Shown here: positions 29,417-57,454 of the stretch, in pieces | Position numbering within the stretch: position 1 is the first letter of the stretch | How the letters are laid out: every line of letters starts with the position of its first letter | NCBI RefSeq assembly: GCF_964355755.1 | Contig: NC_092670.1 | Coordinates: 18,586,795 to 18,650,794, forward strand | Length of the DNA: 64,000 nucleotides | Reading direction: 5' to 3' | DNA from: Antedon mediterranea | Taxonomy: Eukaryota > Animalia > Echinodermata | Notes under the pieces: model-generated | What the model was told of the DNA's origin: nothing | The model's input: the letters and a program-made list of their open reading frames with translations, nothing else | Databases searched by the model: none | Position numbers and translations under genes: made by a program

Positions 29417-30353
29417 TGCAACTTTTTTGGCGGAGAAAAATACTCCGTAGAATTCCGAAAGGCTGTCTTTTAATGAAGCATTGAAAGAGACGCTGTCAAA
29501 AAATATTTAAAACATTGTGTACTGATAAACTATTAATTTTCAGTTATGAATTTTAAATCTTGTTTTTAATTAATTGTAATATTTGTTATTGTACAATAAT
29601 TATGTTATTGAACACTTTATTGGACTAACGATAATTTAAACACGGTTGTTCTAAAATTAGGAATTACTGGAAAGAATTAAAACACTTTGGAATTTTATAG
29701 ACTAAATCTCTACACTATCAAAATTCAAGTGACAAAAAAGTGTGATATACCCAAATATGGTAGTGATATGACAACATCATGTCCATACATGGGCACATCA
29801 CATTTTTTTTTTCATAAAGTTTGACAGTGTAGACAGAGCTTTAAATTGCACTGATTCAGTATTAAATAATGTGTGTACAGGGTGAAACATTCTGTCATTA
29901 CAGACTGTTCCATTTTTAATTGGGGGATGTACACCCAACTACTGTAAATGTTAATGTTTGTAAATAAAAAGTGGTGTATAACATTAAATATGTTAGTTTA
30001 ATTATAATTTGATTTTTTAGTTGATTTTTACTAGGTATGTTATAGCTCAAGCAATTATTATTTTTGTATTATACTGTACAGGTATGTGTGTGTTTTAGTA
30101 ACTGTATATGGTTTAGTGATAATACATCTTATGATACAAAATAACCAGTTATTTAATTGGCAAGAACAATCCGGTCAAAGTTCATGTCCTGTGGCATCCC
30201 ACACCTTCATTCAGAGGCGCGTTCATCCATTGTGTTATTTCCGAAAAAGGATAATATTTCCACTAATGACACTATATAACCTAAATGAAAATTTATTGTC
30301 ATAAATAAATGTGTTTTCTCATAGCCTGTATCTGATGAACAGAGATTTAAAAC

Positions 30354-32089
30354 ATGACAAAACAAAGGACAAATAAAAGACCAAAATCTTATTACATCAA
30401 GTCTGCTCATAAGAAGGGCAAGTATGCCGAGCAGGAGCTGGATGCTGGAATGAAAGGATTCATAATAACCTGCAATTACAACGAGTTTAAATGCAGACAA
30501 GATGCTTATCAACTCTTAAATGAATATGCTGATGAAATGTATGGCCCAGCAGTTCAAGGCTTTGTAAAAGGTATATGTTGTTTGTTTTGTCTTATTTGAG
30601 ACAACTTTCAGGTCTTATCCATCTTCATTCACTGGAAGCTGAGATTGTTGTCTCAGCTGGAAGTGAGAATATGTTCTGTGGATTGAGTAACTAAGTAACA
30701 AAAAATACATGTAGAAACTGCTGATTGGATTATGGTTATGTGTTCAAGAAAATGGAGATTTTAAACAATTATATTATTTTGATTTATAAAATAATTTTCC
30801 CATTAGTCTTTGTACATATACTGTACTTTCCTCATTCATAACTTTATTTTTTCTTTAGAAGAAGAAAGTGATGATGATGATGAGGAAGATTTTGATTTGG
30901 CATTGAAAAAGGAAGTATCCAGCATAAAAGAGAGAAAGCAATTTAGATTCCAGGCGTTAAAAACTAGTGCAAACAATGTGTTGTTTATTAAAGCTGATGT
31001 AAGTACACATTTGCTATACATGTCAGCTGCTACTGCTATGGTCTCTTGACATGGTTGTGCTCCCCACTTTGCTTTCGTTTAAAGGGAAGACACCTTTTTT
31101 TTATAGTAAAACTGTATACCTGCTTTCACTTAGTACCAGATGATATTCACTTGAAGCAATAGTTTATAACTCGACTGCTTCATGGTTACAGGATGGAGCT
31201 ATACAATTGTATAGCTCCATGGTTAAAGAAACTGCTCTTGCATGGCTTGTCGTCTGGCTTTTGATTCATTCAGACTATTATTAAGACATTTAAGTGTTAT
31301 TTAAATGTTATTTTTATCTAGATTGAAAATCCATGCGAGCTAGCCCATTACATTCTCAGTGATCTCCAAGAAACAAAGAAGTTAAAATCACGCGCCATCC
31401 TTCGTCTTCTCCCTGTCAGCGGAACGTGTAAAACCTACGACGACAAGTTAGAGCAACTTGCAGACAAAATTGTTGCACCTCATTTTGAATTTTCATGTAA
31501 AACATATATGTATGTTATTAAAATAAGAATCAATACCACTGTGAAAAGCAAGACTATTATGGGTATCTTGGATAGGATTATTCGGAGGAATGAAGATTTG
31601 AATCATCGGGCAAACATGGATAATCCGGAATTGGTCATCCTTGTTGAAGTTATCCGTAATGTATGTTGCATGAGCGTTATCAAGGATTTCAAGAAGTTTA
31701 GGAAGTATAACTTGCATTCCATTGTTGAAGTTCTTGAAGATAAAAAGGAAGGAAAAGAAGAAAGCAAAAGAGATGGAGAAATAGAAGAAAACCAGGATAG
31801 TGCAGAAACTGAAGAAAAGAAGGATAGCGGAGAAACGGGAGAAAACAAGGATAGTGGAGAAAAAGAAAAACACAAAGATAGTGGAGCAAACAATACTTCT
31901 GGTAATGGTAAACCAGAAGAAATAAAGACTGAAAAGGCTGAACAGGATAAATGTGAAGGATTGCAAAAAGCTGGTGGAGAACAAAAAGAACCAACAACAG
32001 ATAAGAAGATGGTAGATGTCAATACTATAAAAGAGGAAGCTGTGGATGTTGATGATGAACCAAAACTAGAAACAAATGCCAGTAACTAA
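30354..32089 (+). CDS. THUMPD1: THUMP domain-containing protein 1 (tRNA acetylation adaptor)
   Basis: Exons about 30354-30570, 30859-30998, 31322-32089; GMKGFIITCN..E.KC..DAYQLLNEYADEMYG, LKKEV..IK..RFQ..NNVLFI, SRAILRLLPVSGTCK, NPELVILVEVIRNVCCMSVIKDFKKFRKYNL, acidic tail. Confidence 0.95.
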
Positions 32090-32399
32090 AGACAACTATA
32101 TCCAAATTTAGGAATAATAATTTACATATACATTTATAATTTGTCCAATACAGTATTGGTTTTCTTTATTTTGCACATCAAGACTCCCAGAACAACCCTC
32201 ACTACTAACAGATTAAATAACAGATCAAAAATGTACTTATTTCTTTTTTGCTATTGAAGGAAGAAAAACTCTTTACCATATTAAATTAGATTTAAAATGC
32301 ATTATGTAATACTAAATACTGTACTAATTTACTTGGAATTACAAGCCAATATAATATTAATTTATTGCATCTATGCTAACTAACATCTCATAATAATTC

Positions 32400-32975
32400 A
32401 TCTTACAAAAATAATGCTAAGACCTTGTACCTTGATTTTATACTGAAAAACTTTGTAGGGTATTAAATAAAATATTTTGATGCTATGATAATGCAATTTA
32501 ATCTTAACTGCATCTTTCCTATATAACATCAAAATATGAATATCCTACTGTATACAAAATATTGGTAAGTTTTAAACATTTTACCCTGATTTTATTTAAT
32601 AAATATATACTGTAATTCTAAGTAGGTCGGGTATTAAATAAATAGGACATTTTGATGTTCAATATTATGCTATTAATTTAAATTCCTGATATCTCAATAT
32701 GAATACCCTATAAAAGTATTGCCAAATTCTCAACTTTGTACCCTGATTTTATTTAATAAATATATACTGTAATCCTAAGAAAAGTAATTAAATAAATAGG
32801 ATATTTTGATGTTCAATATTATGCTATTAATTTAAATTCCTGATATATCAATATGAATACCCTATACAAATATTGCCAAATTCTCAACTTTGTACCCTGA
32901 TTTTATTTAATAAATATATACTGTAAATCTAAGAAAAGTAATTAAATAAACACGATATTTTGATGTTCTAGTAGC
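32400..32975. repeat. About 155-bp tandem repeat (3-4 copies) between the convergent THUMPD1 and MSRB1-like 3' ends
   Basis: taccctgattttatttaataaatatatactgtaa recurs near 32583, 32739, 32893; one related copy near 34606 in the other MSRB1 3' UTR. Confidence 0.85.
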
Positions 32976-32977
32976 AT

Positions 32978-33044
32978 GGCCAGATACCTCAACTCTCAAA
33001 GTCTTCCATTAAGGCTTTAACTTGAGCGTGTCATACTTTGGTCC
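32978..33044 (-). promoter_or_regulatory. SECIS-like element in the 3' UTR of the non-selenoprotein MSRB1 paralog
   Basis: Minus strand ggaccaaagt ATGAc acgctcaagtt AAA gccttaatggaa gactttgagagt tGAg gtatctggcc: AUGA/GA quartet, about 11-bp helix, unpaired AAA, lower stem. Confidence 0.85.
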
Positions 33045-33218
33045 GTCGTAATGCCACAAAAACATTAAAATATGTTCTCGAGGTTTAATGCTGTTGCATT
33101 TCTTTATTCATTTCTAGAATTAAAGAAAAAAAAACATGGCTGTGAAATAAATAATGAGAATATTTAGAGCTATTACATTTTTAGAGGTTTTAATCATGTG
33201 AGTGACAAACTGCTTACC

Positions 33219-34194
33219 TTAAGCAGGAACAAAGCTTAAAGATGACGAGAATATTTGGAAGCTTGACTTGCCATCGGGACCACCGCCGAGAATTTCATAT
33301 CCCAGATCATTACCACATTTTGCACAGGTTACCTACACAGAAAAATACAATTTGAATCTCTTGGCCAAACTTTTTGCACAAACCAGCATTTTCTGACTTT
33401 AATTGGTTTGTAAGCATGTGCAGATATTTATAATAAGTTTTATTGCTTCATCATAGTTGACATGTCTACCAATACAAAAAGTCAGTAATATACAGTATTG
33501 CTATTCAGTTTGTTGACTTTACCTTTAATTTATTCTGGCTTTCATCTCTTTTGAAAACACTATCGGCATTGATAGTCTCTGTAAAGGCAGGCCAAGCTGA
33601 AGAGTCTTTATATTTTGCTTTGCTGTCAAATAGCTCATTGTTACATTTTGAGCATTTGTAGATACCTTGCAAAGACAGAAAAAATTAAGCAGTTTAAACT
33701 ATTTCGAGCTTGGTTTAATTAATGGATTTGATTAACGTGCTGAAATCAAAATGTTATGCACCATGCCTCCCTCGATAATATTGTCATTCGTTACTAAGAG
33801 GCAGTGCAGAGTAAAACTTTATTCAAATAATCTACAACTTAAATTAATAAATAAATTGCACTTGGAATTTGCCTGCACTGCAAGGTAATTATGCAAGAAT
33901 TTCTTTCTAACAGTTCTACTATATGATTTTTGGTAATAAAAGAAAATTGCTAAAATGTGTACTAGTTTTTATTAACTAAAGGCTTTACAAAGTGGGCCCT
34001 AGGCCTAACTTAGGTAGTACTAACTAGGGGTGTAACCCTCTAGCCAGTTGCGACCTTCTAGTACTATAACTGGTATGTTGATCGGCAGTCGTTAAAGAGA
34101 AACTTTACTTTACTACCAATTAAAACTCCAAATTACCATCTTCAAAATGATCTTTGTATAATATTTCTCCACCCCATCCAGCAGCGAACGACAT
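33219..34194 (-). CDS. MSRB1 (SelR/SelX) paralog with Gln in place of selenocysteine; probably not a reductase
   Basis: Three exons: [107 protein letters not shown] and splice sites intact; CAA at 33255-33257. Confidence 0.9.
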
Positions 34195-34675
34195 TTTGAT
34201 CAATTAATTGACGGCAAACGGGCAAAACGAAAAAATGATTTTGTTGCGTTTACTTAGTTGATTTTAAGCTTGGTTTCTCAACAGGTATGTCGTTTAATGT
34301 TTCCCCTCGAACACTGTATATTATTTGACCAATTAAACCGCGATGGATCATCCGAACTGTCCTTTGTGATTGATCAACTCACTTGTGTTGTCAAGCGGTA
34401 ACTTATGTGTTGTTCGTGTGAGCGTGGACGTGACGACGATGACAAAGGATTTGCATAGGCGGCGACATCAAGGAACATGCACTGCTGTCAATAAAACGCA
34501 CTCTCTTTGAACACAATGTTTTTATTTATTTAGTCCTTGATTCATTTATTACATCTTTGCTAACGTTTCAATATAACTTATCATATAAAAATATTGCTCA
34601 ACATTGTACCTTGATTTTATTTAATATATACTGAGTAGATTAAATAAATAGGATATTTTGATGTTCTAGTAGCAT

Positions 34676-34743
34676 GGCCAGATACTTCAACTCTCCAAGT
34701 CGTCCATTTAAGGCTTTAACTTGAGCGTGTCATACTTTGGTCC
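34676..34743 (-). promoter_or_regulatory. SECIS element of the MSRB1 selenoprotein
   Basis: Minus strand ggaccaaagt ATGAc acgctcaagtt AAA gccttaaatggac gacttggagagt tGAa gtatctggcc. Confidence 0.9.
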
Positions 34744-35621
34744 GTAATGCTACAAAAATATTAAAATATGCTCTTCCCTGGAGGTTTGATGTAATAATGC
34801 AAACTTAAGTGCTTAGTTTCATAGTTAACTCATGAAATATACTGTGTTTAATAAATATTTGATAATAGTACTGTACTACTATCAATTGCATTTAATGTTA
34901 AAAATGTATTGTCTTCCAAAAACATTAAGATTAATCAAATTAGTATGCCATTTTGCAGTTTTAATAAAGTTAATCTCCTCTGTAGGAAAAAAACGAAAAA
35001 AAAAATGTTTTCACTTAGAAAAAGACAAAATAATTGGTTAAATGCAACTAAATACCCATTGACTGGCAGCCAATTTTACTATTTTTTTGTTTCAATTTTG
35101 TTTATTCAATGTTTAGTCAAAGTGAATAACTAATATGTGACATTAAAATGGCATATTCAACAACAACAAAAATGTTTACAAGGGACAAACAATATACCTT
35201 TAATTAGTTAAATTGATAAAGAAATGTTTTGTACTATCTGCGTTAAGGTAACTAGTTTTCTCCAGGGGAATGCGTACATTGTTAGTTGAATGGTTTCTAC
35301 TGCTGCACCTCTCCATTCTTTTCTAGAAAGTAAAGAAAAAACATGGTTATTATATAATAATAATACATTTTATTTTAACAATTTACAATATAAAAAAATA
35401 AAAGCACATACAAAAATCATCATAAAACATCAAAGCATCACTAAAAAGAAAAGCCAATAAAAAACAAATAAAGCCCTGAGAAGAGCCACACTGTTAAAGT
35501 GTAGCTTCCAATCTTTGTTACTATATTGATAGCATGAGTATATTATAATTATTATACATATATAATGACATGAGTATATTTTGACAACAATTTTTAGAGG
35601 TTAGATGAAAAAGTACTCACC

Positions 35622-36648
35622 TTAAGTCTTCAAAGCAACAAACTTCAAAGACTCTGAGAATATTCAAAAGCGCGATTTGCCATCAGGACCGTCGGTAAGA
35701 AATTCATGCCCCAAACCATTACCACATTTTCCACAGGATACCTACACAAAACAAAATCTCTTGGTCAAAATTTTGTGAAGCGATAGGAAGGTGTCACAAC
35801 ATTGATCGGTTTGCAGAGAATCGAAAATTGGAAAATATAATTGCAGGAGCAATGACTTATCTCTGAAATAGCGCTATACAAAGAATTTATTCATAAAAAA
35901 AGTTTATATATACTTCCTTGTTGACTTACTTTTAAGGCATTCTTGCTTTCTTCTCTTTTGGAGACACTGTCAGCGTGAATGGTATCTGTAAATGCAGGCC
36001 AAGGTGACGAGTGTTTGTATTTCTTCTTGCTGTCAAATAGTTCATAGCCACATTTTGAGCATGTGTACATACCTTGGAAAAAAAACATTAAAATAATACC
36101 TTTTTTGCGTTTACTATATTACGGACACAACAAAACGCAAGAGATTTCAAACACTACTTGGATCTGGTTTGTTAAAAAACAATTTGACTACTACTACTAG
36201 GCCTAGGTCTACTTCTACTGACAGGGAAAAATTTCATTTTAAAATCAAATTGATTTTTGAGTTGAGAAACATAGTTTTGAATTGTATTTTTTGCTAGACA
36301 ATTTTAGAAATGTGTACAGTACAGTGTAGCAATAAGGTTTTTTTGTATAGCTTTTTGCTATGCTACACTGGCGAAATTATTCCCTGATTGACTAAACTAG
36401 CTAAAAGCTAGGAACAACAACTAGGCCTACTTCCGCCTAAATATGGAGAGACAGGGCCTGTTGGTTCTACTCTCTCTGATCTAGCCCTAGCCTATCCAGG
36501 GAGAGAGGCCGAATGCCCTACTCTCTCTCTATAATTTAAGTCTAGCTAGCTAGGCCTAACCCTAAAAAACAGTAAATTTTGGGTCGAAATTACCATCTTT
36601 AAAATGGTCTTTGTACTTTTCCCCAGAAAACCACCCACAGTACGACAT
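35622..36648 (-). CDS. MSRB1: Methionine-R-sulfoxide reductase B1, selenoprotein (in-frame TGA = Sec at 35664-35666)
   Basis: [105 protein letters not shown]; matches the MsrB1 motif SRFUIFS, two CxxC zinc motifs and the N-terminal resolving Cys; SECIS downstream. Confidence 0.96.
36222..36386. mobile_element. CAGGG...CCCTG MITE, second copy (inverted relative to 4150-4324), in MSRB1 intron 1
   Basis: tgctatgctacactggcgaaattattccctg is the reverse complement of the start of the 4150 copy; flanks actga / attga. Confidence 0.85.
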
Positions 36649-37565: not shown

Positions 37566-40383
37566 ATGGAAGCCCCAACAAATTCAGATGAGACATCTGC
37601 AACAGAAACAGAAATAACTCAATCAATGGAGACATGTGACAAAATTGAACCTGGAGTGAAAGAAAATCATTCTTCGGTCAATACTACCAGTAACGAATCC
37701 TTAAAAATTGAAGATAATTCATCAGAAAAAAAAGAAACTGATTTACAAAATGAAAAAATAAATGAGGATGGTGACAACGTCTCATCAGAAACTGTTACTT
37801 TTAAACTTGTTTACATGAAGAAAAATTATGACATTACCTTTGAACTAGATGCTAAAATATCGCAGCTGAAACAGAAAATTCAAAGTTTAACAGGTAACAA
37901 AGATTAATCCAGGAAACAGATCAGATCTCTTTTAATATTATTTTTAGGGAGTTTTTGGTCGAACAATTAAACCTTAATTTTAACGGATTAACATTCTATT
38001 AATTTGCATAACAGCATAGTTGCGAACAGTTGTGTTAACATACTTCAATTTTTATTCAATGAAGGCTTAGAAAAAACACTTGCCAGTGTTTAAAACCATA
38101 GGACTAGAGGAGGTGTAGATCTTTTTTTGCATTGAACTGAGTTTACAAGTTAGAAAATATTGTTAAAATTAAGGTTTACAAAAAGTCTCTATTATTAGAA
38201 AAATAATCCTTTCATTTTAAAGATCACTCTGTAATTTTTGTAAAATATAGATTTTTGTCTTGTGGTAAAAGACATCAATTCAATACAATTATATTTGGTG
38301 ATCTCTCTAAACCTTACTTGATATTTATTTAACGAAATTATATTTTTGTTAGATGTGCCGCCAGCTATGCAAAAATTAATGTACAAAGGGTTGGTGAAAG
38401 ACGAACAGACATTACGAGAGTCAAAGGTCACGAAGGGTGCTAAGATGATGATGATTGGTTCTACACTTAAGGATGTGTTGACGGTAACAACCACTCCAAC
38501 AGCATCTGGTGTACCTATTCAAGAAACAGGTATGTAATAAAGTTTATGTGACAAAAGAATGTGATGTGCCCATATATGGACATGATGATGTCAAATTACT
38601 ACCATATTTGGGCACATCACACTTTTTTGTTAAACTAGTAGAATTTATTCTTTATATTATGTACACCCTTCATTCAGTATCAATATCATTTTAAAGTAAA
38701 TTATAAAAAAGAGCATTTTTAAGATGTATAACAGGCAAATTTAAAGTTGGTTGTTATGGCATATGGTAGGTTGTTCATGTTCCTTAAATTCAGTAATAAT
38801 ATTAATGAAGATTTCTTTCGCCGCCAAAGGTGCTCAAGCATTGTACTTTTTTAATGGTACTTTTTAAATTTACATAAAACTATTTCAAAATTATGATTTT
38901 CGTAATAAGTTCTATGCATGTCATCTGAAATTAATACTTTAATTTACTCTATTTGCATATTATATATCTATACACATCCATTGAATTCAAAGTATTGTTT
39001 GTGTTACAGCAGGCACCACGAAAGAGCCATTAAGTCGGCAAAAGCTTCATAAAAAGGTTCTAGATAAAGGAAAACCAGAGGATATCATGCCAGGAATCAA
39101 AAATAAAAAGGTATCAGGAGTCAAATTCATCAAATGTGCTTATAAAAAAAACCCAACAAATTATTTTAAAACTTTATTTTAAACTTAAACTAACATATAG
39201 AAATTATTTAAAGATATTTAAATGAAGTCAGATAATAAAAAAATGCTTGATAAATGAAACCTCCTGTTTTTCACTTAAGTACCTTTTGACTATCTTTCAC
39301 TTAAGCAAAAAGATTGATAACTGCCAGTCCTGGTAATCTTCTATCTCATTCCAGATTATTGTTAGTACAAAGTTACAATCTTTACTTTCTTTGCAGGAAC
39401 CATTACCAAATTTCCCAATATCAGGAATGTTCAACAAATCTGGTGGAAAAGTACGGCTAACTTTTAAACTTGAACTAGACCAGTTATGGTTAGGAACAAA
39501 AGGTATTATTTGTTTTTTATTTTGATGTTTACAGTTACAATTCCATGTTTGAACTCTTTTTTATTTATCATCGTTAAAATATAAAGAAATCAGAAACTAA
39601 GGTCGATAAAGAGGTAAAAATGAAACACATAAATATTTGAAATGAGCTTGTAATGTACCCTAAAATTAAGTATCATATTATTATTTAAAATCATAACTAC
39701 AGAACATAGACTAACTTTAACCATGAACTATAGAGTAGTTCCATGCTTTAACCATTAAGTGGCATTTTCATTTTAAAGATCAGCAAAAGAGATCAGAAGT
39801 GATGGTAAATAAGCCTAACAAGCTAATGACGGTTTTTCCCCTTTCATTGAAAAACTAAACCCTCTGTAAAAATCTTGTATATTGTCTTGTATGTATTACT
39901 TTTCTTGTATAAATATGTCAATTTCAGAGAGAACTGAAAAGTTAAAGATGGAATCGATTAAAAAGGTTGTAAGTGAACCAATTGAAGGCCACGAAGAATA
40001 TCATATTTTGGTGAGTTCTCTGAAATCTTTATTTTGCATTTATAATTTATTAATAAAATAATTAATTGCAGGATTTTTTGAAAAAGTTTGATAGTGTAGA
40101 CAGGGCTTTATAGCCAGTCGGTTATAACAAACATATAGTATTACTGTATACATGAATGCATTGTGTGGTGTGGTTTACACAAACAGCGACATTTCAATCA
40201 AGAAAGAGATCAAATAAACCAGCAAATTGCCTAGCTAACCAAAACAAATATATATAAACTTATTTTTAGGCCCTCCAGCTTGGCCCAACTGAAGCCTCGA
40301 GATATTGGATATATTGGGTGCCAGCACAATATGTGGATTCTATCAAAGATGCAGTTCTTGGTAAATGGCAGTCTTTCTTCTGA
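37566..40383 (+). CDS. UBFD1: Ubiquitin family domain-containing protein 1
   Basis: Exons about 37566-37893, 38352-38529, 39011-39110, 39397-39502, 39928-40010, 40270-40383; VPPAMQKLMYKGL, KEPLSRQKLHKKVLDKGKPED, GMFNKSGGKVRLTFKLELDQLWLGTKERTEK, ALQLGPTEASRYWIYWVPAQYVDSIKDAVLGKWQ. Confidence 0.96.
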
Positions 40384-41589: not shown

Positions 41590-42337
41590 TTAAGATTGCT
41601 TATCAGTTTCATCTTTGTAACCAAGCAATGTCAGGAGAATCGTGGCGTAGTTACATTCCCAACCATTCCAAGAAAGGCCCACCGTTTTCCTCAGTAGATT
41701 TGGGAGATCTGGAACACCAGATAGCGCCCTAAGAATCGCTAAATTATTCACACTACTCGTCACTAAGGTATAAATGCACCATCTGGTCATCCGTGGGTCG
41801 GTTGTCGATCCTAGGTTATCTGTGATGGAACTAATCCCCCCGTTTCTCACGAAGCTGTCGATATTGTCCCTATGACCCTTGCAGATCTCACTGACACTTC
41901 GCACAGCTTGTATGCGTAGAGCTCGTGGATTCTCAATGTTGTTCAGTATTTCGAGAACGAGATGAATGTATTTTCCGGCACTCTTCGATGCTTCGGGTCC
42001 TCCTATAGAATTGAAATATAACATTAATGCCCATCTAGGCCCTAGTATTTGTTGTCACAATATTTAAATGAATATTTGAACCCCTTGGTTGGTTAGTTTC
42101 CTTTGAGAATATTTTGTTGGCTGACCTACCTGTGTATGCTAAGTGTCCAATTTTTTTCAACGCTTCAATTTTTGTGTCAACGTCAACTCTATCTGAAAGA
42201 ATCTGAGCGTTCATTAATATACCACGTTTGTACAAGTTGGTTTCATTGTCCCACGCGTTGCCTTGCTCGGCGTGCGAAGCTAAATGCTGCCATGTTTTCT
42301 CCACACTTTGAACAACTTTTTTCATGGAATTAAACAT
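41590..42337 (-). CDS. ARMH2: Armadillo-like helical domain protein, ARMH2 (C6orf229)-like, 2 exons
   Basis: Exons about 42130-42337 and 41590-42003; KIGHLAYTGGPEA, WCIYTLVTSSVNNL and WNGWECNYATILLTLLGY resemble my recollection of ARMH2 (KIGLLAFTGGP, WTCYVLSVMTCNNL, WSGWTENFAEVLYFLIGF). Confidence 0.8.
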
Positions 42338-46021: not shown

Positions 46022-49000
46022 TTACTTATAAATAGCTCCACACGAGGCACACCTCTGTTTCGACATCATGAGGCAACATATCAACCCCATAGGAAAAAAG
46101 AAAACCGCACAACAAATTCCAAGAACAGAATATGACACTTTTAAGTCAGTTCTACAAGTTGGACAGACGCTGTCCAGGGCTACCCACTCGTTCTGTTGCT
46201 CTTGCATTTTGATTGTATGTTGATCCGAACCTGGCGGACCATGCGTGTAAGCTACTACAGTAGTTTTTGTTGCCATATTCGTCGATTGATTTGCTTGAAG
46301 AAGGCCAGATGATGAATATTTAGGAATCTGCTGGAATTGGCCGGTGTGGTACTGACCACCGGTGTGTGGTGGTGGTGGGTACACAGGCTGGTTTGCCAAG
46401 TATTGACCAGTGTTTGGTTGGTAAATCGGTGGTTGGCAAATCGGTTGATTCGTCTGGGGCGGGTAATAGCCCGTCTGATGTGATTGCTGCCACAGCGGAG
46501 GATATGACGGATCTGTAAATCAGAAAAGAAAAAGAAGTTAAAATTTAAATTCATTATAAACTAGATACTGTATTTACTATTTGATTAAGAATACCTCTTG
46601 GTCAACAACAGCAATGTGCGATGAGTTCACAGAATATAGAACACTGTACGGTGATTAACGTCACTTTGGTAAATGCATGCTACCTCAATATTTCAGCGTT
46701 GTGTATTTACAGTTTTTTTTTAAAGCTAAGTATTCGGTACCGAGTAAAGAATGGAATTCTGGGCGATTCCATTAGTGGCACTGCGCATTAGTGTCCTTTC
46801 GTACCTTTATAAAAAGTACGATGTAAAACTCTACACTATCAAACTAAAAAAGGTCATATACAATATGGCTGCTGTCGCGTGCTTAAATTTGAGTTAGTGT
46901 TTACCGACCGACCGACCGACCAACCGACCGACATAGTGAGAGCTGTAGAGTCGCGTTTGCACGCGACTAAAAACACAAAAAAATGTGCAGTGATGTGCTC
47001 AAATATGGTAGTGATGCCCAAATATGGTAGTGATATGACATCATCATGTCCATATATGGGCAAATATATTTTATCATCAAACTAGTTTGATCATGGACCT
47101 ATTAGTCCATGGTTTGATAGTGTAGACAGAGTTTTAAGCACATACCAGATATTGCTTGATTAACTTATTGCAAAAGATCGCGTTATAAATTGATATATAC
47201 TGTTGCATTTTAGTGCACTACCCCTGAGCATCGAATGATGACGTAGCACTGATACCTAATGAGCTGTTCATCGAAGCTGTCAAGCAATAGAAACAAATGG
47301 CGATTGCTATATATTAATTTTCACATTTATTTCAAAACCGTTTCACATATAACCTTTTACGTTCATTTGAGACTATTATAATTTTGCACACTTTTAATCA
47401 AATTTGTTTTCACTTTTAATCGTTACTCGCATAATTGATATGTTTTCAAATTACAATTCCCGATCATTTTATCTCGCATATGTTTGCTGTCCTACGTACG
47501 CACGTACGTGCCTTCAAGCTTGGTTCCCACTAGTGACGCAACGCAAGGACGTAACGCAACGCAAGTGAATTGACCAATCACAAGCGATGGCTTATTCGCT
47601 TGTGATTGCTATAACTGTCTATAACTTCGCTTGTCATTGGTTAAAACGCTTGCGTTGCGTTTACGTCCTTGCGTTACATTCTAGTGGGAACCAAGCTTTA
47701 AGCTCTGTCTACACTATCAAATTTTATGTGACTAAAAAATGTGATGTGCCCATATATGGACACGAGGATGTCATATCACTACCATAATTGGGTATAACGC
47801 TTGGGCACATTGATTTTATGCTCGTTTTATTTATTTATTCTATGTTATTATACTTTGTTTCTGTGTTTATCGTATGAATACACACAAAATACCGGTCCTT
47901 GCGCACTATCTACCAAAATATGTTTGCCTGATCATCAATAATACGTATTCGATCGTAGATGGCTGTTATTATTGTAACTCTCCGTGGAACGATAAACAAC
48001 GACTCTTCTGGCCAGAGCAAACTTCAAATAAATTATTATAATATACAATATTCTACAACTAGTTCGTTATGAACTATTCTCGCTGTAATTCAGGAGATCA
48101 CATTGTTGTTGTTTTACCGTTGCTGAAACGTTAAAACGAAATATAATGTAGCGGCTATCTATGGGAAAATAAGTGCTTATTACCTTCCTCCGTGGCTACT
48201 ATGACTAAACCGACTATGTTATACCAGGGAGTTGTAAATTAGTAATTACAACTCCCTGGTTAGGAACCTTCAATGATGGTTATACGGTTTGCGATTTATA
48301 GTTTATCTATAGTTTTACTGATATAACTCTATCGAACGACCTGATCACTCTTTATAAACAATCATCAACTGCACTACCCCTAGGATCAATAGCATAACAG
48401 ATATAGAAATGATTCGGAGAATAGCAGAAAACAAACAGGAGGAGAGCAATACGATATTATAAACAAAGCAGCCGAGGCGGGAAAGTCAGACTATCTGGCG
48501 AACCGACAATAAAGTATAAGTAAAGTTGTTTAACTGAGAATGGTTTCTTGCTAGGTTAGTAATTGGTCACTCGGTTGGTTAGTAAATGGTTAGTTAATTG
48601 TTTTGCTTCCCAGACAGTTGATTGGTTGCAAGAATCAGTTACCCAATCCGTCGGCTGGCTGTGGTTAACTGATTTGTAAAGTAAAGTTTAGATTGACTGA
48701 TATATGTTGGAAGTTTGCTTTGAAATCGTTCTTTGTAAAGCGATATAAATGATCAAAACGAAAAACATACAAATAACCAATTACCGTTAAATATAAGTAT
48801 CGTATCATGAATAGCCTAATTACCATAACAATTATTTTATGTAATTTTTAGCAATTATTATTGATAATCCAATCATAGTCATGAATTGTAATCTTCTCAG
48901 AAAATGCAAATTTGACTTATTGAGATTATACAGCTATCTGCTGATAGCCTGGAGAATTCTGCTTAATATCCTTGACGACTTCAGATTTGCGATCGCAGAG

Positions 49001-52159: not shown

Positions 52160-54481
52160 TTATTGGTATATAGCGCCACAAGATGGACAATGCCTGTTCC
52201 TCATCATTAAACAACACAGCAAACCGAGCGGGAAAAAGAAAATAGCACAACATATGCCAAGTGGGGTAAACGACTCCTGTAGAATACCGATGTGACACCG
52301 TGGACAAGTCGTACCAACGACTACCACTTGACTTGTGGTAGCGCCTTGTTGTACAGTGACGGTTTGGTGTACTGCTCCTGAGGGACCGGATGAGTAAACA
52401 GTCGTTCTGGTGTTTGGTGGTGGATAGGCTGCCATCGGCTGGTTTGCTTGTGGAGGGTATGGAGAATATCCAGCCGGTTGCGCTGGGTATCCTGTCGGCT
52501 GTGGTGGATACACTGGATCACCAGTAGCTATAAAATACAAATTCAGTTCAATTTATTTCCACAATACATAATAACATACAGGATACTAAATACAATAAAG
52601 TAATCATGGGGTGGGGGGTCATATAAGTCAGAAAGACTTTAAGTTTGACCCATCCCAACATATAACAATAAATACAAATACGAAAAAGAAAAAAAATACA
52701 TAAACTAATAATTATTAATATTAAATAAAAGAAAAACAAAGCTACAATTTGATTCATCATAAATACTATGGTACGATATGAGGGGAGCCAGCCCGTAGAC
52801 TCGCATTTCTTTCTATGAAACAGTCTTTAGAAAATGTGTCTTTCATGATCATGTTTCTTTGATCCTCCTCCTAGGAGGACGCAGCGTAAGTGCAGCGCAA
52901 GTAATGCTTGGTTTCCACTAGCGACGCAATCCACGCAACGTAAGAAAAATTTCCAATCCTTCCAATCGGTTGCCTCCGCGCGCCTGTGTGAAATCAAAGC
53001 TACGATGTTTGCAGCACAATTGTATCAAAGATTGTATAGCGCCGCTACGCGGCGCTATACAATCTTTGATTGTATCGTCGGTTCCCACTTATACAACACT
53101 TTGCTTCAATACGTCGTTGCGTTGCGTTCTAGTGGGAACAACCAAGCTTTAGTCCCTTTTATACGCCGCAGGAAAAAATGATTATTCCATGCCTATTTTT
53201 CAATTTTAACGCTCATCCCAATGACGTAATTAATTTGAATTGTATACACCCCTACCTGATCGTCAGGCCTATATTAATAATATTCATATTGAACAAAGGT
53301 TAATTCATATTGTTAAATTAATCATGTAACGATGTTTGTATTTTGGATGATGTATATTGATTTCCCTTCGGTTATTACTTCCCCTTTGGCCTATTAAAAT
53401 GCATGATCTCTATGTCGACATTAACATGAGACCTAATGTTCATATAATACACCATGGACAAAATTGATATAGTACTTGTTTTGTCCATGCATAGACTGGT
53501 ATTTATTCGATAAAGCCTGGACCCGTACTCATTTTTGTTTGGAACGAATTACAAACTTTCATAAAATAAAATAATTATTAGACTTTTATGTGGTTTCGGT
53601 CAATTAAAAATGGAATTGTTGCTTAATATGTCGATAATAACTGTAATGAACTTTTAATCTAAAAAAAAAGACACGCCAAGCAAATTTTTGAAAATAAATT
53701 CAACAGTGGACTTGAACAGAACCCATCGAAAAACCGTTTCAACTGCCGTTTCAATCCATCCCACCTGAAGTAAATTTATGTATGATTACTATCCTACTGT
53801 ATCAGAATAGCGTTTTATTCAGCACTGCTCAGGCTGGTATATTATAAACATTATTTTTATCGACTTATTATTGTATTGATTTCGACAAAGGGCTTGATTC
53901 TAATAGGCATAATGGTTATTTAATTGCTCCTTATTGCATTTTGTTATTTTAAAACTATTGTTGTTTTATTACCATTATTGAATAAATGTTATTGAACTTG
54001 AAAATAAACAGTACCGCTGCTTACAGCAAAACACGTATGATTTTTTGAACTCCGGGAATGTTTTGTTTTAACATGCTTGAATGTGATCTAATACATCACG
54101 GTACATAAAAGAATTTGGCTAAGAAGACATAAAATAGTCAAAATCCAACTACCCACTCTTTTCTTTTCTTTTTTCCCACTGGGAATTTTCGATATCATCA
54201 TCTTGTTTAATGTCTTAATAAATTTAGACACCAATTGGCACTTTTTATGCGATAATTTGCACCACCATCATGTCCAATATATTATAAGCGATTTTAAAAG
54301 CAAATCTGCCACGGGCCTCAAACCCAGTCTCTGCCTGATAAGTAATTAATCGTCCGCGCCATCTTCTCTGAAATGATGGCAATCAAGAAAGAAATTTAAT
54401 TGTCTTCTTACCGGATTTTGTCCATCCTGCTTCGGGTGGTGAGTATGGTGGCGGCTGCGTGTTTCCTGCAGGGTCTGCCAT
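52160..54481 (-). CDS. BRI3-like membrane protein, paralog 2
   Basis: Exon 1 54412-54481 (MADPAGNTQPPPYSPPEAGWTKS) plus exon 2 52160-52527 ending VVVVGTTCPRCHIGILQESFTPLGICCAIFFFPLGLLCCLMMRNRHCPSCGAIYQ*. Confidence 0.9.
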
Positions 54482-56226: not shown

Positions 56227-57454
56227 ATGTCAGCACCTCAACAACCTCCACCTGAAGAGAAACCCCCAGCATATAATGGCCAAGGGATGATGCCACCAAA
56301 AATGGCCAATGGTGCACCACAAGGCTATGGCATGCCACCACCTGGATATACAAGTAAGGACTGTCATTATTATGGCTATATTGTATGTTCTAACAGTACA
56401 TTGAATTTGTATTCTGTGTAATGTATTAAATTATGCTTATCACTAATTATGTAACCTGGAAATTTATCTTTATCATTTCAATTTACGTTTTAGTCCAGTA
56501 AAATTACATCTTATTATAAATTTCTTCATTTAATTATCTCTTTATATATTGTTCTGATCTTATTTTTGAGATGAAGATAATGATCTATACAAAATTTACT
56601 GTAAAGTGCTGAAATCCAAATTTATAAGAACATTTTTTTATATGGCCGCCACTTTATACTTGAGTATTTATTATTATTAAACATCAAAAGCTTTGGAAAT
56701 ATTTATCAACTATGAATCATAATGACTTGAGGCATGGAGTGAGAGAATCAATGAATTGCTAACATAGAGCAGTCTACCAGCATACTATATCTAATTATGA
56801 TATAATAAAATGACTGTACTGTATTACACATAATCAATAAAGTAATCAATGTTGAGAAATAAGGGGATTTTCAAACATTGTAAAATAGTCAGCAATAAAT
56901 ATTATGCTGTTACTGAATATGAATAAAACTTATACTCCAAATAAAAGATTAAATCAACCTTTCGATTTTTATTGGATCATCATCAGTGTATCATATTTAT
57001 TTTAATACCTACCTACCTTATAGTGTTGGTATGGTTGGTATTTGTATTTATAATGCATTTTAATTTAAATATATGTAGTATAATTTAATGCAGTGACCAT
57101 TTCTTTATTATACAGTTCTAATTTATATAATAATTAAAGCATGTAATTGGTTATAAAATAACTTTTTATTTTTATTTTCTAGGCTACCAATCAGGGGCAC
57201 CACCAGGTTATCAGCCAGCGCCACCACAACCAGGATACCCCCCTCAACAGGCATACGGCCAACCAGTCACAGTCACGCACACCACAAATGTGGTTGTTGT
57301 AGGTGGGTGCCCTGCCTGTCGAGTTGGTGTTCTCGAAGATGATTTTACCGTCCTTGGTGTGCTCTGTGCCATTTTATTTTTTCCGCTCGGAATTCTGTGC
57401 TGTTTAGCAATGAGGCAGAGGCGATGCCCAAATTGCGGAGCTGTATTTGGTTAA
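56227..57454 (+). CDS. BRI3: Brain protein I3, the most conserved copy
   Basis: Exons 56227-56353 and 57183-57454; EKPPAY...VVVVGGCPACRVGVLEDDFTVLGVLCAILFFPLGILCCLAMRQRRCPNCGAVFG*, close to the vertebrate BRI3 C-terminus. Confidence 0.95.

What the first reader, a model, noticed from the sequence alone, without database searches (positions are those of the whole stretch)
32978..36648. Tandem MSRB1 pair: a true selenoprotein next to a Sec->Gln twin that keeps its SECIS
Seen: the copy at 35622-36648 has SRF-TGA-IFS, the N-terminal Cys and a SECIS. The copy at 33219-34194 has an intact ORF and identical exon structure, but CAA (Gln) at the Sec codon, no N-terminal Cys (MSFAAG), and coordinated changes at active-site positions (GHEF->GYEI, SRF->SSF, HSSPW->DSSAW). 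Both zinc CxxC motifs and the WPAFT core are kept. Its 3' UTR still has a SECIS nearly identical to its twin's (AUGA/GA quartet and AAA intact), although no in-frame UGA remains and the stop is TAA. Established: Sec is normally exchanged for Cys, and MsrB needs Sec/Cys at this position. Inference: a neofunctionalised pseudo-enzyme (binder or regulator) whose orphan SECIS could act as an SBP2 decoy, or is kept by gene conversion.
Basis: partly seen in the sequence, partly recalled or inferred. Interest (0 to 1): 0.88.

Follow-up and report, generated by a model that had tools for sequence, protein, structure and literature searches.

The report
Dead-enzyme twin of feather-star MSRB1
A feather star carries, next to its normal selenium-containing protein-repair gene MSRB1, an intact duplicate that has lost the catalytic residues and likely survives as a non-catalytic zinc protein, while its selenium-insertion RNA signal was likely copied recently between the two genes rather than kept for a job of its own.

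Summary
The window is Antedon (feather star). Copy A is a spliced MSRB1 with UGA, Cys4 and a SECIS. Copy B has an intact frame and splice sites, CAA at the Sec codon (also in sequencing contigs of two samples) and only the four zinc cysteines, so it cannot work as an MsrB. The duplication is old (dS about 0.77, introns largely unalignable) and pairwise dN/dS is 0.24. B changed 8 of 12 literature-defined pocket residues but only 7 of 63 other conserved ones (p=1e-4; A changed 0 of 12). That fits a fold-preserving pseudo-enzyme better than a decaying pseudogene, but the pocket rate fits relaxation as well as positive selection. The SECIS claim is weaker. The whole 220-nt 3' block, flanks included, is 83-95% identical between copies against 52% at synonymous sites, so it was likely homogenised late. 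The SECIS divergence is what one constrained plus one neutral copy would give, so a decoy role is not needed. Spliced B mRNA was not seen: the single RNA contig over B keeps its introns. No B-like protein was found elsewhere. Real, apparently lineage-restricted, moderately interesting.

The parts
35622..36648 (-). Copy A: MSRB1 selenoprotein gene; coding exons 36648-36594, 36072-35930, 35741-35622
   Evidence: Translation; Pfam SelR; best PDB matches are MsrB1; both coding introns spliced in run X1
35664..35666 (-). Copy A in-frame TGA (Sec), 43 nt upstream of the 3' UTR intron
35323..35620 (-). Copy A 3' UTR intron, starting 1 nt after the stop
   Evidence: joint 35322-35621 in X1
34925..35170 (.). 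Multi-copy element (approximate limits) inside the ~500-nt stretch of A's 3' UTR that B lacks; it lies just upstream of the homogenised block
   Evidence: very high DNA-run depth and loose ends; gap in the A/B alignment
34660..34762 (-). Copy A SECIS hairpin (AUGA at 34733)
   Evidence: covered by an X1 contig 34167-34973
34568..34791 (-). A side of the ~220-nt homogenised 3' block (SECIS plus both flanks)
34195..34500 (-). CpG-rich putative promoter / 5' region of copy B; the 12 nt before the ATG match A's at 10 of 12
   Evidence: CpG o/e 1.42 against 1.58-1.73 upstream of A; start context
33219..34194 (-). Copy B: MSRB1-derived pseudo-enzyme gene; coding exons 34194-34137, 33665-33523, 33332-33219; 104 aa; four zinc cysteines only
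33255..33257 (-). CAA (Gln) at the Sec position
   Evidence: unchanged in X1-X4 contigs
33114..33217 (-). Copy B 3' UTR intron (predicted), same position as in A
32962..33066 (-). Copy B SECIS hairpin (AUGA at 33034), with no in-frame UGA to serve in B's own ORF
32848..33090 (-). B side of the homogenised 3' block
32340..32968 (.). Four tandem ~154-nt copies (U1-U4) of the post-SECIS flank; used as a local clock

Best explanation
Copy B is an intact tandem duplicate of MSRB1 that has lost its catalytic residues and is likely kept as a non-catalytic zinc beta-tent protein, and its SECIS is likely a passenger of a late gene-conversion event between the 3' ends of the two genes. Shown: intact frame and splice sites, no cysteine or Sec at the active site, loss of the Sec95-Arg93-Asp85 triad, Cys4, His80 and Phe82, changes concentrated in the pocket, and a 3' block far more alike than the coding sequence. 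Inferred steps: (1) After duplication the Sec codon went TGA>CGA (Arg)>CAA (Gln), the second step being a CpG transition, so Gln need not be specially selected. (2) With catalysis gone, pocket residues drifted at about the neutral rate, while the zinc site and core stayed constrained because the folded protein is still used, most likely as a binder of a protein partner or of a ligand other than Met-R-sulfoxide. (3) Ectopic conversion later overwrote one 3' block with the other, and B's SECIS has had too little time to decay.
For: dS 0.77 (bootstrap 0.45-1.48) and pairwise dN/dS 0.24 (0.10-0.47) over 91 codons (0.29 over all 103 aligned codons). Intron 1 and the 5' regions align no better than shuffles; intron 2 and the UTR intron align only in short stretches, near the acceptor where shown. 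In a neutral simulation the ORF, ATG and coding splice sites survived 0.35 substitutions/site in 0.07% of runs without indels, and in 0 of 20000 with them. They survived 0.06/site, the least that gives B's ~15 excess replacements, in 23%, 6% and 0.5% of runs at indel ratios 0, 0.1 and 0.3; the 3' flank itself shows 3-6 indels per 7-16 substitutions. B-only changes: 8 of 12 pocket positions against 7 of 63 other conserved positions, Fisher p=1.3e-4; A 0 of 12; p=2.8e-4 without positions 41 and 66. The pocket list comes from PMC1278935 and PMC4287342. Branch lengths A 0.12, B 0.5. Flank mismatches 11 of 110 against synonymous differences 29 of 61, p=9e-8. A's flank is 82-85% identical to B's repeat units U1-U3, while U4 is 67-70% from all of them. 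A neutral SECIS still passes my scanner after 3, 5 or 7 random substitutions in 51%, 31% and 19% of trials. B has a CpG-rich upstream region. 0 of 7 listed variants in B's gene body are coding (p=0.12, not significant).
Against: In run X1, which shows A fully spliced, the one contig over B (33036-33897) runs unspliced through both ends of B's UTR intron, both ends of intron 2 and the intron 1 acceptor, and A's 3' contig reaches 34167, inside B's first exon. This may be read-through from A, pre-mRNA or DNA carry-over; it is one sample and has no strand. No partner or ligand of B is known. Constraint measured between A and B is historical and does not show that B is used today. Branch-specific dS is assumed to be half of the pairwise value, since no DNA outgroup was available. 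The pocket list was drawn up after I had seen the substitutions. At the stiffest gap setting the SECIS is significantly more conserved than its flanks (p=0.008), and none of the five substitutions hits the core. The direction of conversion is not determined.
Confidence: 0.5

Rival explanations
1. B was a constrained gene for most of its history but is now silent or dying: a young pseudogene whose ORF has not yet been hit, transcribed only as read-through from A.
For: Only unspliced sequence over B in X1, and A's 3' contig enters B's first exon. The ORF survives a short neutral spell of 0.03 substitutions/site in 7-46% of simulations.
Against: Pure decay from a working MSRB1 does not explain the pocket clustering (p=1e-4) or several codons hit two or three times. 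This rival therefore needs an earlier non-catalytic phase. The CpG-rich upstream region and start context persist, and no coding variant was listed.
Confidence: 0.22
2. B's SECIS is functional in cis for copy A: a long A transcript reads through B unspliced (spliced forms would likely be removed by nonsense-mediated decay), ends at B's poly(A) site and carries two SECIS elements.
For: A's 3' contig extends past its poly(A) signals to 34167 and the B contig is unspliced. B's element scores better against Rfam SECIS_1 than A's. All five differences spare the core.
Against: No contig links A to B across 33898-34166, and a contig would not prove one transcript. A has its own intact SECIS. The divergence fits neutrality of B's element.
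Confidence: 0.12
3. B mRNA is selected as an SBP2 decoy that tunes selenoprotein synthesis.
For: The element is structurally intact. Free SECIS RNAs do compete for SBP2 in vitro (PMC4615290 passages).
Against: The SECIS is not more conserved than one constrained plus one neutral copy predicts, and the flanks were homogenised too. A decoy would need B mRNA near the summed level of all selenoprotein mRNAs (inference). A decoy role would not explain constraint on the protein fold.
Confidence: 0.07
4. The pocket was positively selected for a specific new ligand or a new, non-thiol chemistry (true neofunctionalisation rather than relaxation).
For: 13 nucleotide differences in 12 pocket codons, 11.5 of them non-synonymous, with A unchanged at the protein level. 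Point estimate of dN/dS 1.4. New polar groups (Lys66, Asp77, Tyr80, Ser93, Gln95) sit in the groove that beta-tent proteins use for binding (PMC4287342).
Against: The range 0.7-2.4 includes 1. Gln is the expected CpG product of an Arg codon (inference).
Confidence: 0.09

Closest known systems
MSRB1 (SelR/SelX), Pfam PF01641; PDB 3MAO, 2KV1
   Same: Exon 2 of both copies matches SelR and best matches MsrB1. B keeps both CxxC, Trp43, Ser41, Glu81 and Phe97.
   Different: B lacks Sec95, Arg93, Asp85, Cys4, Gly77, His80 and Phe82; its exon 3 gives no Pfam hit at E up to 1. The fish MSRB1b duplicates are described as Sec-containing (PMC13134290 passage).
Pufferfish SelW2c (Sec>Arg)
   Same: A duplicate selenoprotein gene with Sec replaced by a non-Cys residue (CGA), with EST support (PMC3316567 passage).
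   Different: There the SECIS was lost or degenerated. Here it is intact, and the whole pocket has changed.
Metazoan SPS1 genes (Arg, Gly, Thr at the Sec site) and Ciona SPS-ae
   Same: Non-Sec, non-Cys paralogs of a selenoenzyme with a function other than the parent's. The Ciona gene makes a Gly isoform from a gene that has a SECIS in its 3' UTR (PMC4561486 passages).
   Different: SPS1 is ancient, recurrent and functionally tested, and separate SPS1 genes lose the SECIS. B was found in one genome only and is untested.
Non-catalytic beta-tent domains (CULT/cereblon, Yippee, RIG-I regulatory domain)
   Same: Zinc beta-tent fold with a binding groove at the MsrB pocket position; CULT needs no catalytic residue (PMC4287342 passages).
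   Different: Those are remote, ancient families. B is 67% identical (69 of 103) to its MSRB1 neighbour and has no CULT tryptophan cage. It may work like them but is not a member.

Membership tests
MSRB1 selenoenzyme (copy A) | In-frame UGA in SRFUIFS, Cys4, Arg93/Asp85/His80, two CxxC | tested here: met
MSRB1 selenoenzyme (copy A) | Spliced mRNA with a SECIS in the 3' UTR | tested here: met
   three joints in X1 and a contig over the SECIS; scanner hit; no Rfam hit
MsrB enzyme (copy B) | Catalytic Cys or Sec at position 95 | tested here: not met
   Gln; only the four zinc cysteines
MsrB enzyme (copy B) | Arg93-Asp85 of the triad, and His80/Phe82 of the pocket | tested here: not met
   Ser, Gly, Tyr, Ile; H/F/D/R in 5 of 5 prokaryote-type MsrB loci
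MsrB structural family (copy B) | SelR domain homology with the zinc CxxC pair and WPxF | tested here: met
   Pfam SelR E 1e-9 for exon 2
MsrB structural family (copy B) | Folded beta-tent with bound zinc | not testable with these tools
   the spliced protein could not be submitted for folding
Selenoprotein gene (copy B) | In-frame UGA paired with the SECIS | tested here: not met
   The ORF ends in TAA and read-through ends in TAA; the only UGA-ending ORF of 10 codons or more in the modelled mRNA is an 11-codon out-of-frame one
Eukaryotic SECIS (copy B element) | AUGA...AA...GA core with helices I and II | tested here: met
   Rfam SECIS_1 full-length but below the gathering score
Eukaryotic SECIS (copy B element) | SBP2 binding and UGA recoding | not testable with these tools
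   needs an assay
Pseudo-enzyme | Catalytic residues lost with the fold under purifying selection | tested here: met
   pairwise dN/dS 0.20 at non-pocket conserved sites
Pseudo-enzyme | Expressed as spliced mRNA and protein | tested here: inconclusive
   one RNA-like run, contigs only, unspliced over B
Unprocessed pseudogene | Stops, frameshifts or broken splice sites; uniform neutral change | tested here: not met
CULT / Yippee | Family profile match or aromatic cage | tested here: not met
   Pfam gives only SelR

The most novel reading that the evidence does not exclude
Copy B is an expressed MsrB-derived binding protein with a selected new pocket, an MsrB-to-binder transition caught early that parallels how CULT- or Yippee-type domains may have arisen. 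Its intact SECIS is in use, either as a second SECIS for long copy-A transcripts or as an SBP2 competitor, so the dead twin regulates its active neighbour at both protein and RNA level.
Probability: 0.08. Interest if true: 0.85.

Novelty: new variant of a known kind. Interest (0 to 1): 0.45.

Why it matters
Sec is nearly always exchanged for Cys. The exceptions I could read about (SPS1, pufferfish SelW2c) lose the SECIS once they are separate genes. If B is expressed it would be a catalytically dead MSRB1 paralog, which my literature searches did not find described. It would be a natural probe for what MSRB1 does apart from reducing Met-R-sulfoxide, and a small model of an enzyme-to-binder switch in the beta-tent fold. 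It is also a practical warning for selenoprotein annotation: an intact SECIS behind a gene without UGA can be a gene-conversion passenger. The weight is limited because B was found in one genome, with no spliced transcript and no function shown.

Tried and rejected
No whole genome is held, so other MsrB copies and orthologous loci could not be searched; the window itself has only these two. No holder is on record as RNA among the 5 listed; X1 is flagged as a guess, but it shows spliced joints. No spliced B joint and no A-to-B splice was listed in X1; contigs drop rare forms, so this is no evidence of silence, and contig depths were not used to rank the genes. Searches for a B-type protein with exon 2 found none: 2 candidates, 0 significant; 102 hits among 116 candidates, at most 71% identity; 225 hits, best 150 listed, at most 71%. 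Of 223 MsrB-like proteins collected, 70 alignments spanned His80-Arg93; none has Gln at the Sec site, and the deviants look like mis-joined or alternative C-termini. These searches had length limits and 50%/90% clustering, so absence is weak evidence. The protein tree did not resolve A+B as a clade (open forks); their sister status rests on tandem position and shared residues such as D18, D32 and D88. The Atlas gave no result. Look-ups of earlier findings returned nothing. The bacterial promoter scan is irrelevant to an animal gene. Rejected readings: sequencing error or haplotig (two changes from TGA, dS 0.77, runs agree); RNA editing of CAA to UGA (needs C-to-U plus A-to-I in one codon, and X1 reads CAA); read-through to a downstream UGA (ends in TAA); recent conversion within the coding sequence (synonymous differences are spread evenly); a Met-sulfoxide substrate trap (a trap should keep His80, Phe82 and Arg93; inference). 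My guess that H39D is the bacterial state was wrong (Ser in 5 of 5). In one search I joined B's last exon one base off; this was corrected, and it affects only ORFs that cross that joint. A structural paper on mouse MsrB1 that I recalled could not be read.
Full report
Source and setting. The THUMPD1 gene just downstream (30354-32089, plus strand) is 97-100% identical to a protein named from Antedon mediterranea, and 59-73% to that of Anneissia japonica. The window is therefore an Antedon feather star (crinoid echinoderm); the species is not fixed by this. No whole genome was available.

Observation. A encodes 105 aa with TGA at 35666-35664. B encodes 104 aa with CAA at 33257-33255 and a TAA stop; they share 69 of 103 aligned residues. 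Both have a further intron 1 nt after the stop. Exon 2 of each matches Pfam SelR, and B's exon 2 and A's exon 3 match MsrB1 best in the PDB; B's exon 3 gives no Pfam hit. Run X1 shows all three introns of A spliced. Contigs from four runs of two samples bridge B's CAA without a listed difference. Both SECIS hairpins fold, and they are the only hits of a pattern-plus-helix scanner that I wrote from the recalled consensus; 0.25 hits per strand are expected by chance. Rfam supports B weakly and A not at all.

Can B be an enzyme? No thiol or selenol is left outside the zinc site. PMC1278935 (passages and section 7) names the Cys/Sec95-Arg93-Asp85 triad, the resolving Cys4, position 41, and Gly77, Glu81 and Phe97 as required in MsrB1. 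PMC4287342 (passages) names a Trp, an Arg, a His and a Phe as the MsrB binding site. I map these to positions 43, 66, 80 and 82; position 66 is Arg in 4 of 5 prokaryote-type loci. Of these 12 positions B changed 8 (C4A, A66K, G77D, H80Y, F82I, D85G, R93S, U95Q) and A none. B is thus not a member of the MsrB enzymes, though it is of MsrB descent.

Pseudo-enzyme or pseudogene? The pair is old: dS 0.77 (0.45-1.48), and intron 1 and the 5' regions align no better than shuffles. Pairwise dN/dS is 0.24 (0.10-0.47). Change is lopsided: against 12 outgroup proteins, 20 replacements plus the Sec site are B-specific, 6 are A-specific and 7 others are ambiguous (21 against 6, p=0.006). It is also clustered: 8 of 12 pocket positions against 7 of 63 other conserved positions (p=1.3e-4; 2.8e-4 without positions 41 and 66). 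The list was drawn up after I saw the changes, though from the two papers. In simulation, neutrality since duplication almost never leaves the frame intact (0.07% even without indels). A short neutral spell long enough for 15 excess replacements leaves it intact in 23%, 6% or 0.5% of runs at indel ratios 0, 0.1 and 0.3, and would not cluster the changes. The one length change against A in exon 1 is 3 nt, in frame. B also has a CpG-rich upstream region, and 10 of the 12 bases before its ATG match A's (a post hoc test). So the fold has been under purifying selection after catalysis was lost. The pocket itself evolved at dN/dS about 1.4 (0.7-2.4, assuming equal dS on both branches), which cannot tell relaxation from positive selection. 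Gln is readily reached by TGA>CGA>CAA (inference); Sec>Arg(CGA) has a precedent in pufferfish SelW2c (PMC3316567 passage).

The SECIS. The similarity is not confined to the element. A 34791-34568 aligns with B 33090-32848. The hairpin has 5 mismatches in 102 and the flanks 11 in 110 (p=0.20). Over four gap settings the flank rate is 8-17% and the p value runs from 0.42 to 0.008. The flanks are far closer than synonymous sites (29 of 61 differ; p=9e-8). B's flank is also present as four tandem units. A's flank is 82-85% identical to U1-U3, while U4 is 67-70% from all of them, so the A and B 3' ends appear to share an ancestor more recently than B's own oldest repeat unit does (inference, assuming a clock). 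Just upstream of the block, A carries ~500 extra nt with a multi-copy element, a natural boundary for a conversion tract. If A's SECIS is constrained and B's has been neutral since, the expected divergence is half the flank rate, and the observed value fits at all four settings (P 0.14-0.78). A neutral element often still passes the scanner after 3-7 substitutions (51-19%). Late homogenisation therefore explains the retained SECIS without a decoy function. The direction of transfer is not determined, and mild constraint on B's element is not excluded, since all five changes spare the core. SECIS decoy activity is known in vitro (PMC4615290 passages).

Expression. This is the weak point. In X1, the single RNA-like run, the contig over B (33036-33897) is unspliced, and A's 3' contig runs to 34167, inside B's first exon. 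Read-through from A, pre-mRNA or DNA carry-over could each give this. It raises a rival in which B's SECIS serves a long A transcript, and another in which B is now silent. Contigs of one sample cannot decide between them.

Relatives. No B-type protein was found with exon 2 as the query (limits in Tried and rejected), so B is so far known from this genome only.

Comparison with what is known. Non-Cys replacement of Sec in a duplicate is known for SPS1 (PMC4561486 passages) and SelW2c, where separate genes lose the SECIS. MSRB1 duplicates in fish are described as Sec-containing (PMC13134290 passages). A table of invertebrate selenoproteomes lists 1-2 SelR genes per species (PMC3473315 passage). 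Non-catalytic beta-tent binders exist as remote families. PMC6316033 was seen as passages only. Searches for a crinoid or pseudo-enzyme MsrB and for a retained SECIS gave nothing of this kind in the listings; the library lacks most subscription papers. No supplements were read, and those of the selenoproteome papers could list similar cases.

Verdict. A real, old, apparently lineage-restricted, catalytically dead MSRB1 duplicate whose fold is conserved. It is most likely a non-catalytic binder, with a SECIS refreshed by gene conversion (joint confidence 0.5). It is a new variant of a known kind.

Noticed in passing
window 46025-46393 (-), 52163-52549 (-), 57308-57448 (+): Three BRI3-like (Brain protein I3) gene copies, 41-62% identical to the middle one, one inverted: another local duplication.
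   Followed up: partly
window 41590-42054 (-): Exon matching Pfam ARMH2.
   Followed up: no
window 30354-32089 (+): THUMPD1 gene converging on copy B; an X1 contig extends to 32524, over repeat unit U4.
   Followed up: partly
window 37566 onward (+): Gene divergent from copy A with a CpG-rich stretch between them; it looks like a UBFD1-type ubiquitin-domain gene from recall, with no Pfam hit for the first exon at E 0.01.
   Followed up: no
window 38551-38630 and 29732-29809: 80-nt hairpin element with 29-nt arms, with a 91% inverted copy 8.7 kb away; MITE-like.
   Followed up: no
window about 36180-36413 and 34308-34400: Multi-copy elements in A's intron 1 and in B's upstream region, seen as high DNA-run depth; the latter holds a CCAAT-like motif (recalled) shared with other loci.
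   Followed up: no
window 35620 and 33217: Both genes have an intron 1 nt after the stop. In A it lies 43 nt after the UGA, inside the 50-55 nt limit (recalled), so failed Sec insertion would likely escape nonsense-mediated decay.
   Followed up: partly
protein P0120 (unnamed ENA record): Holds two different MSRB1 exon-2-like stretches in one short predicted protein, hinting at tandem MSRB1 exons or genes in another organism.
   Followed up: no
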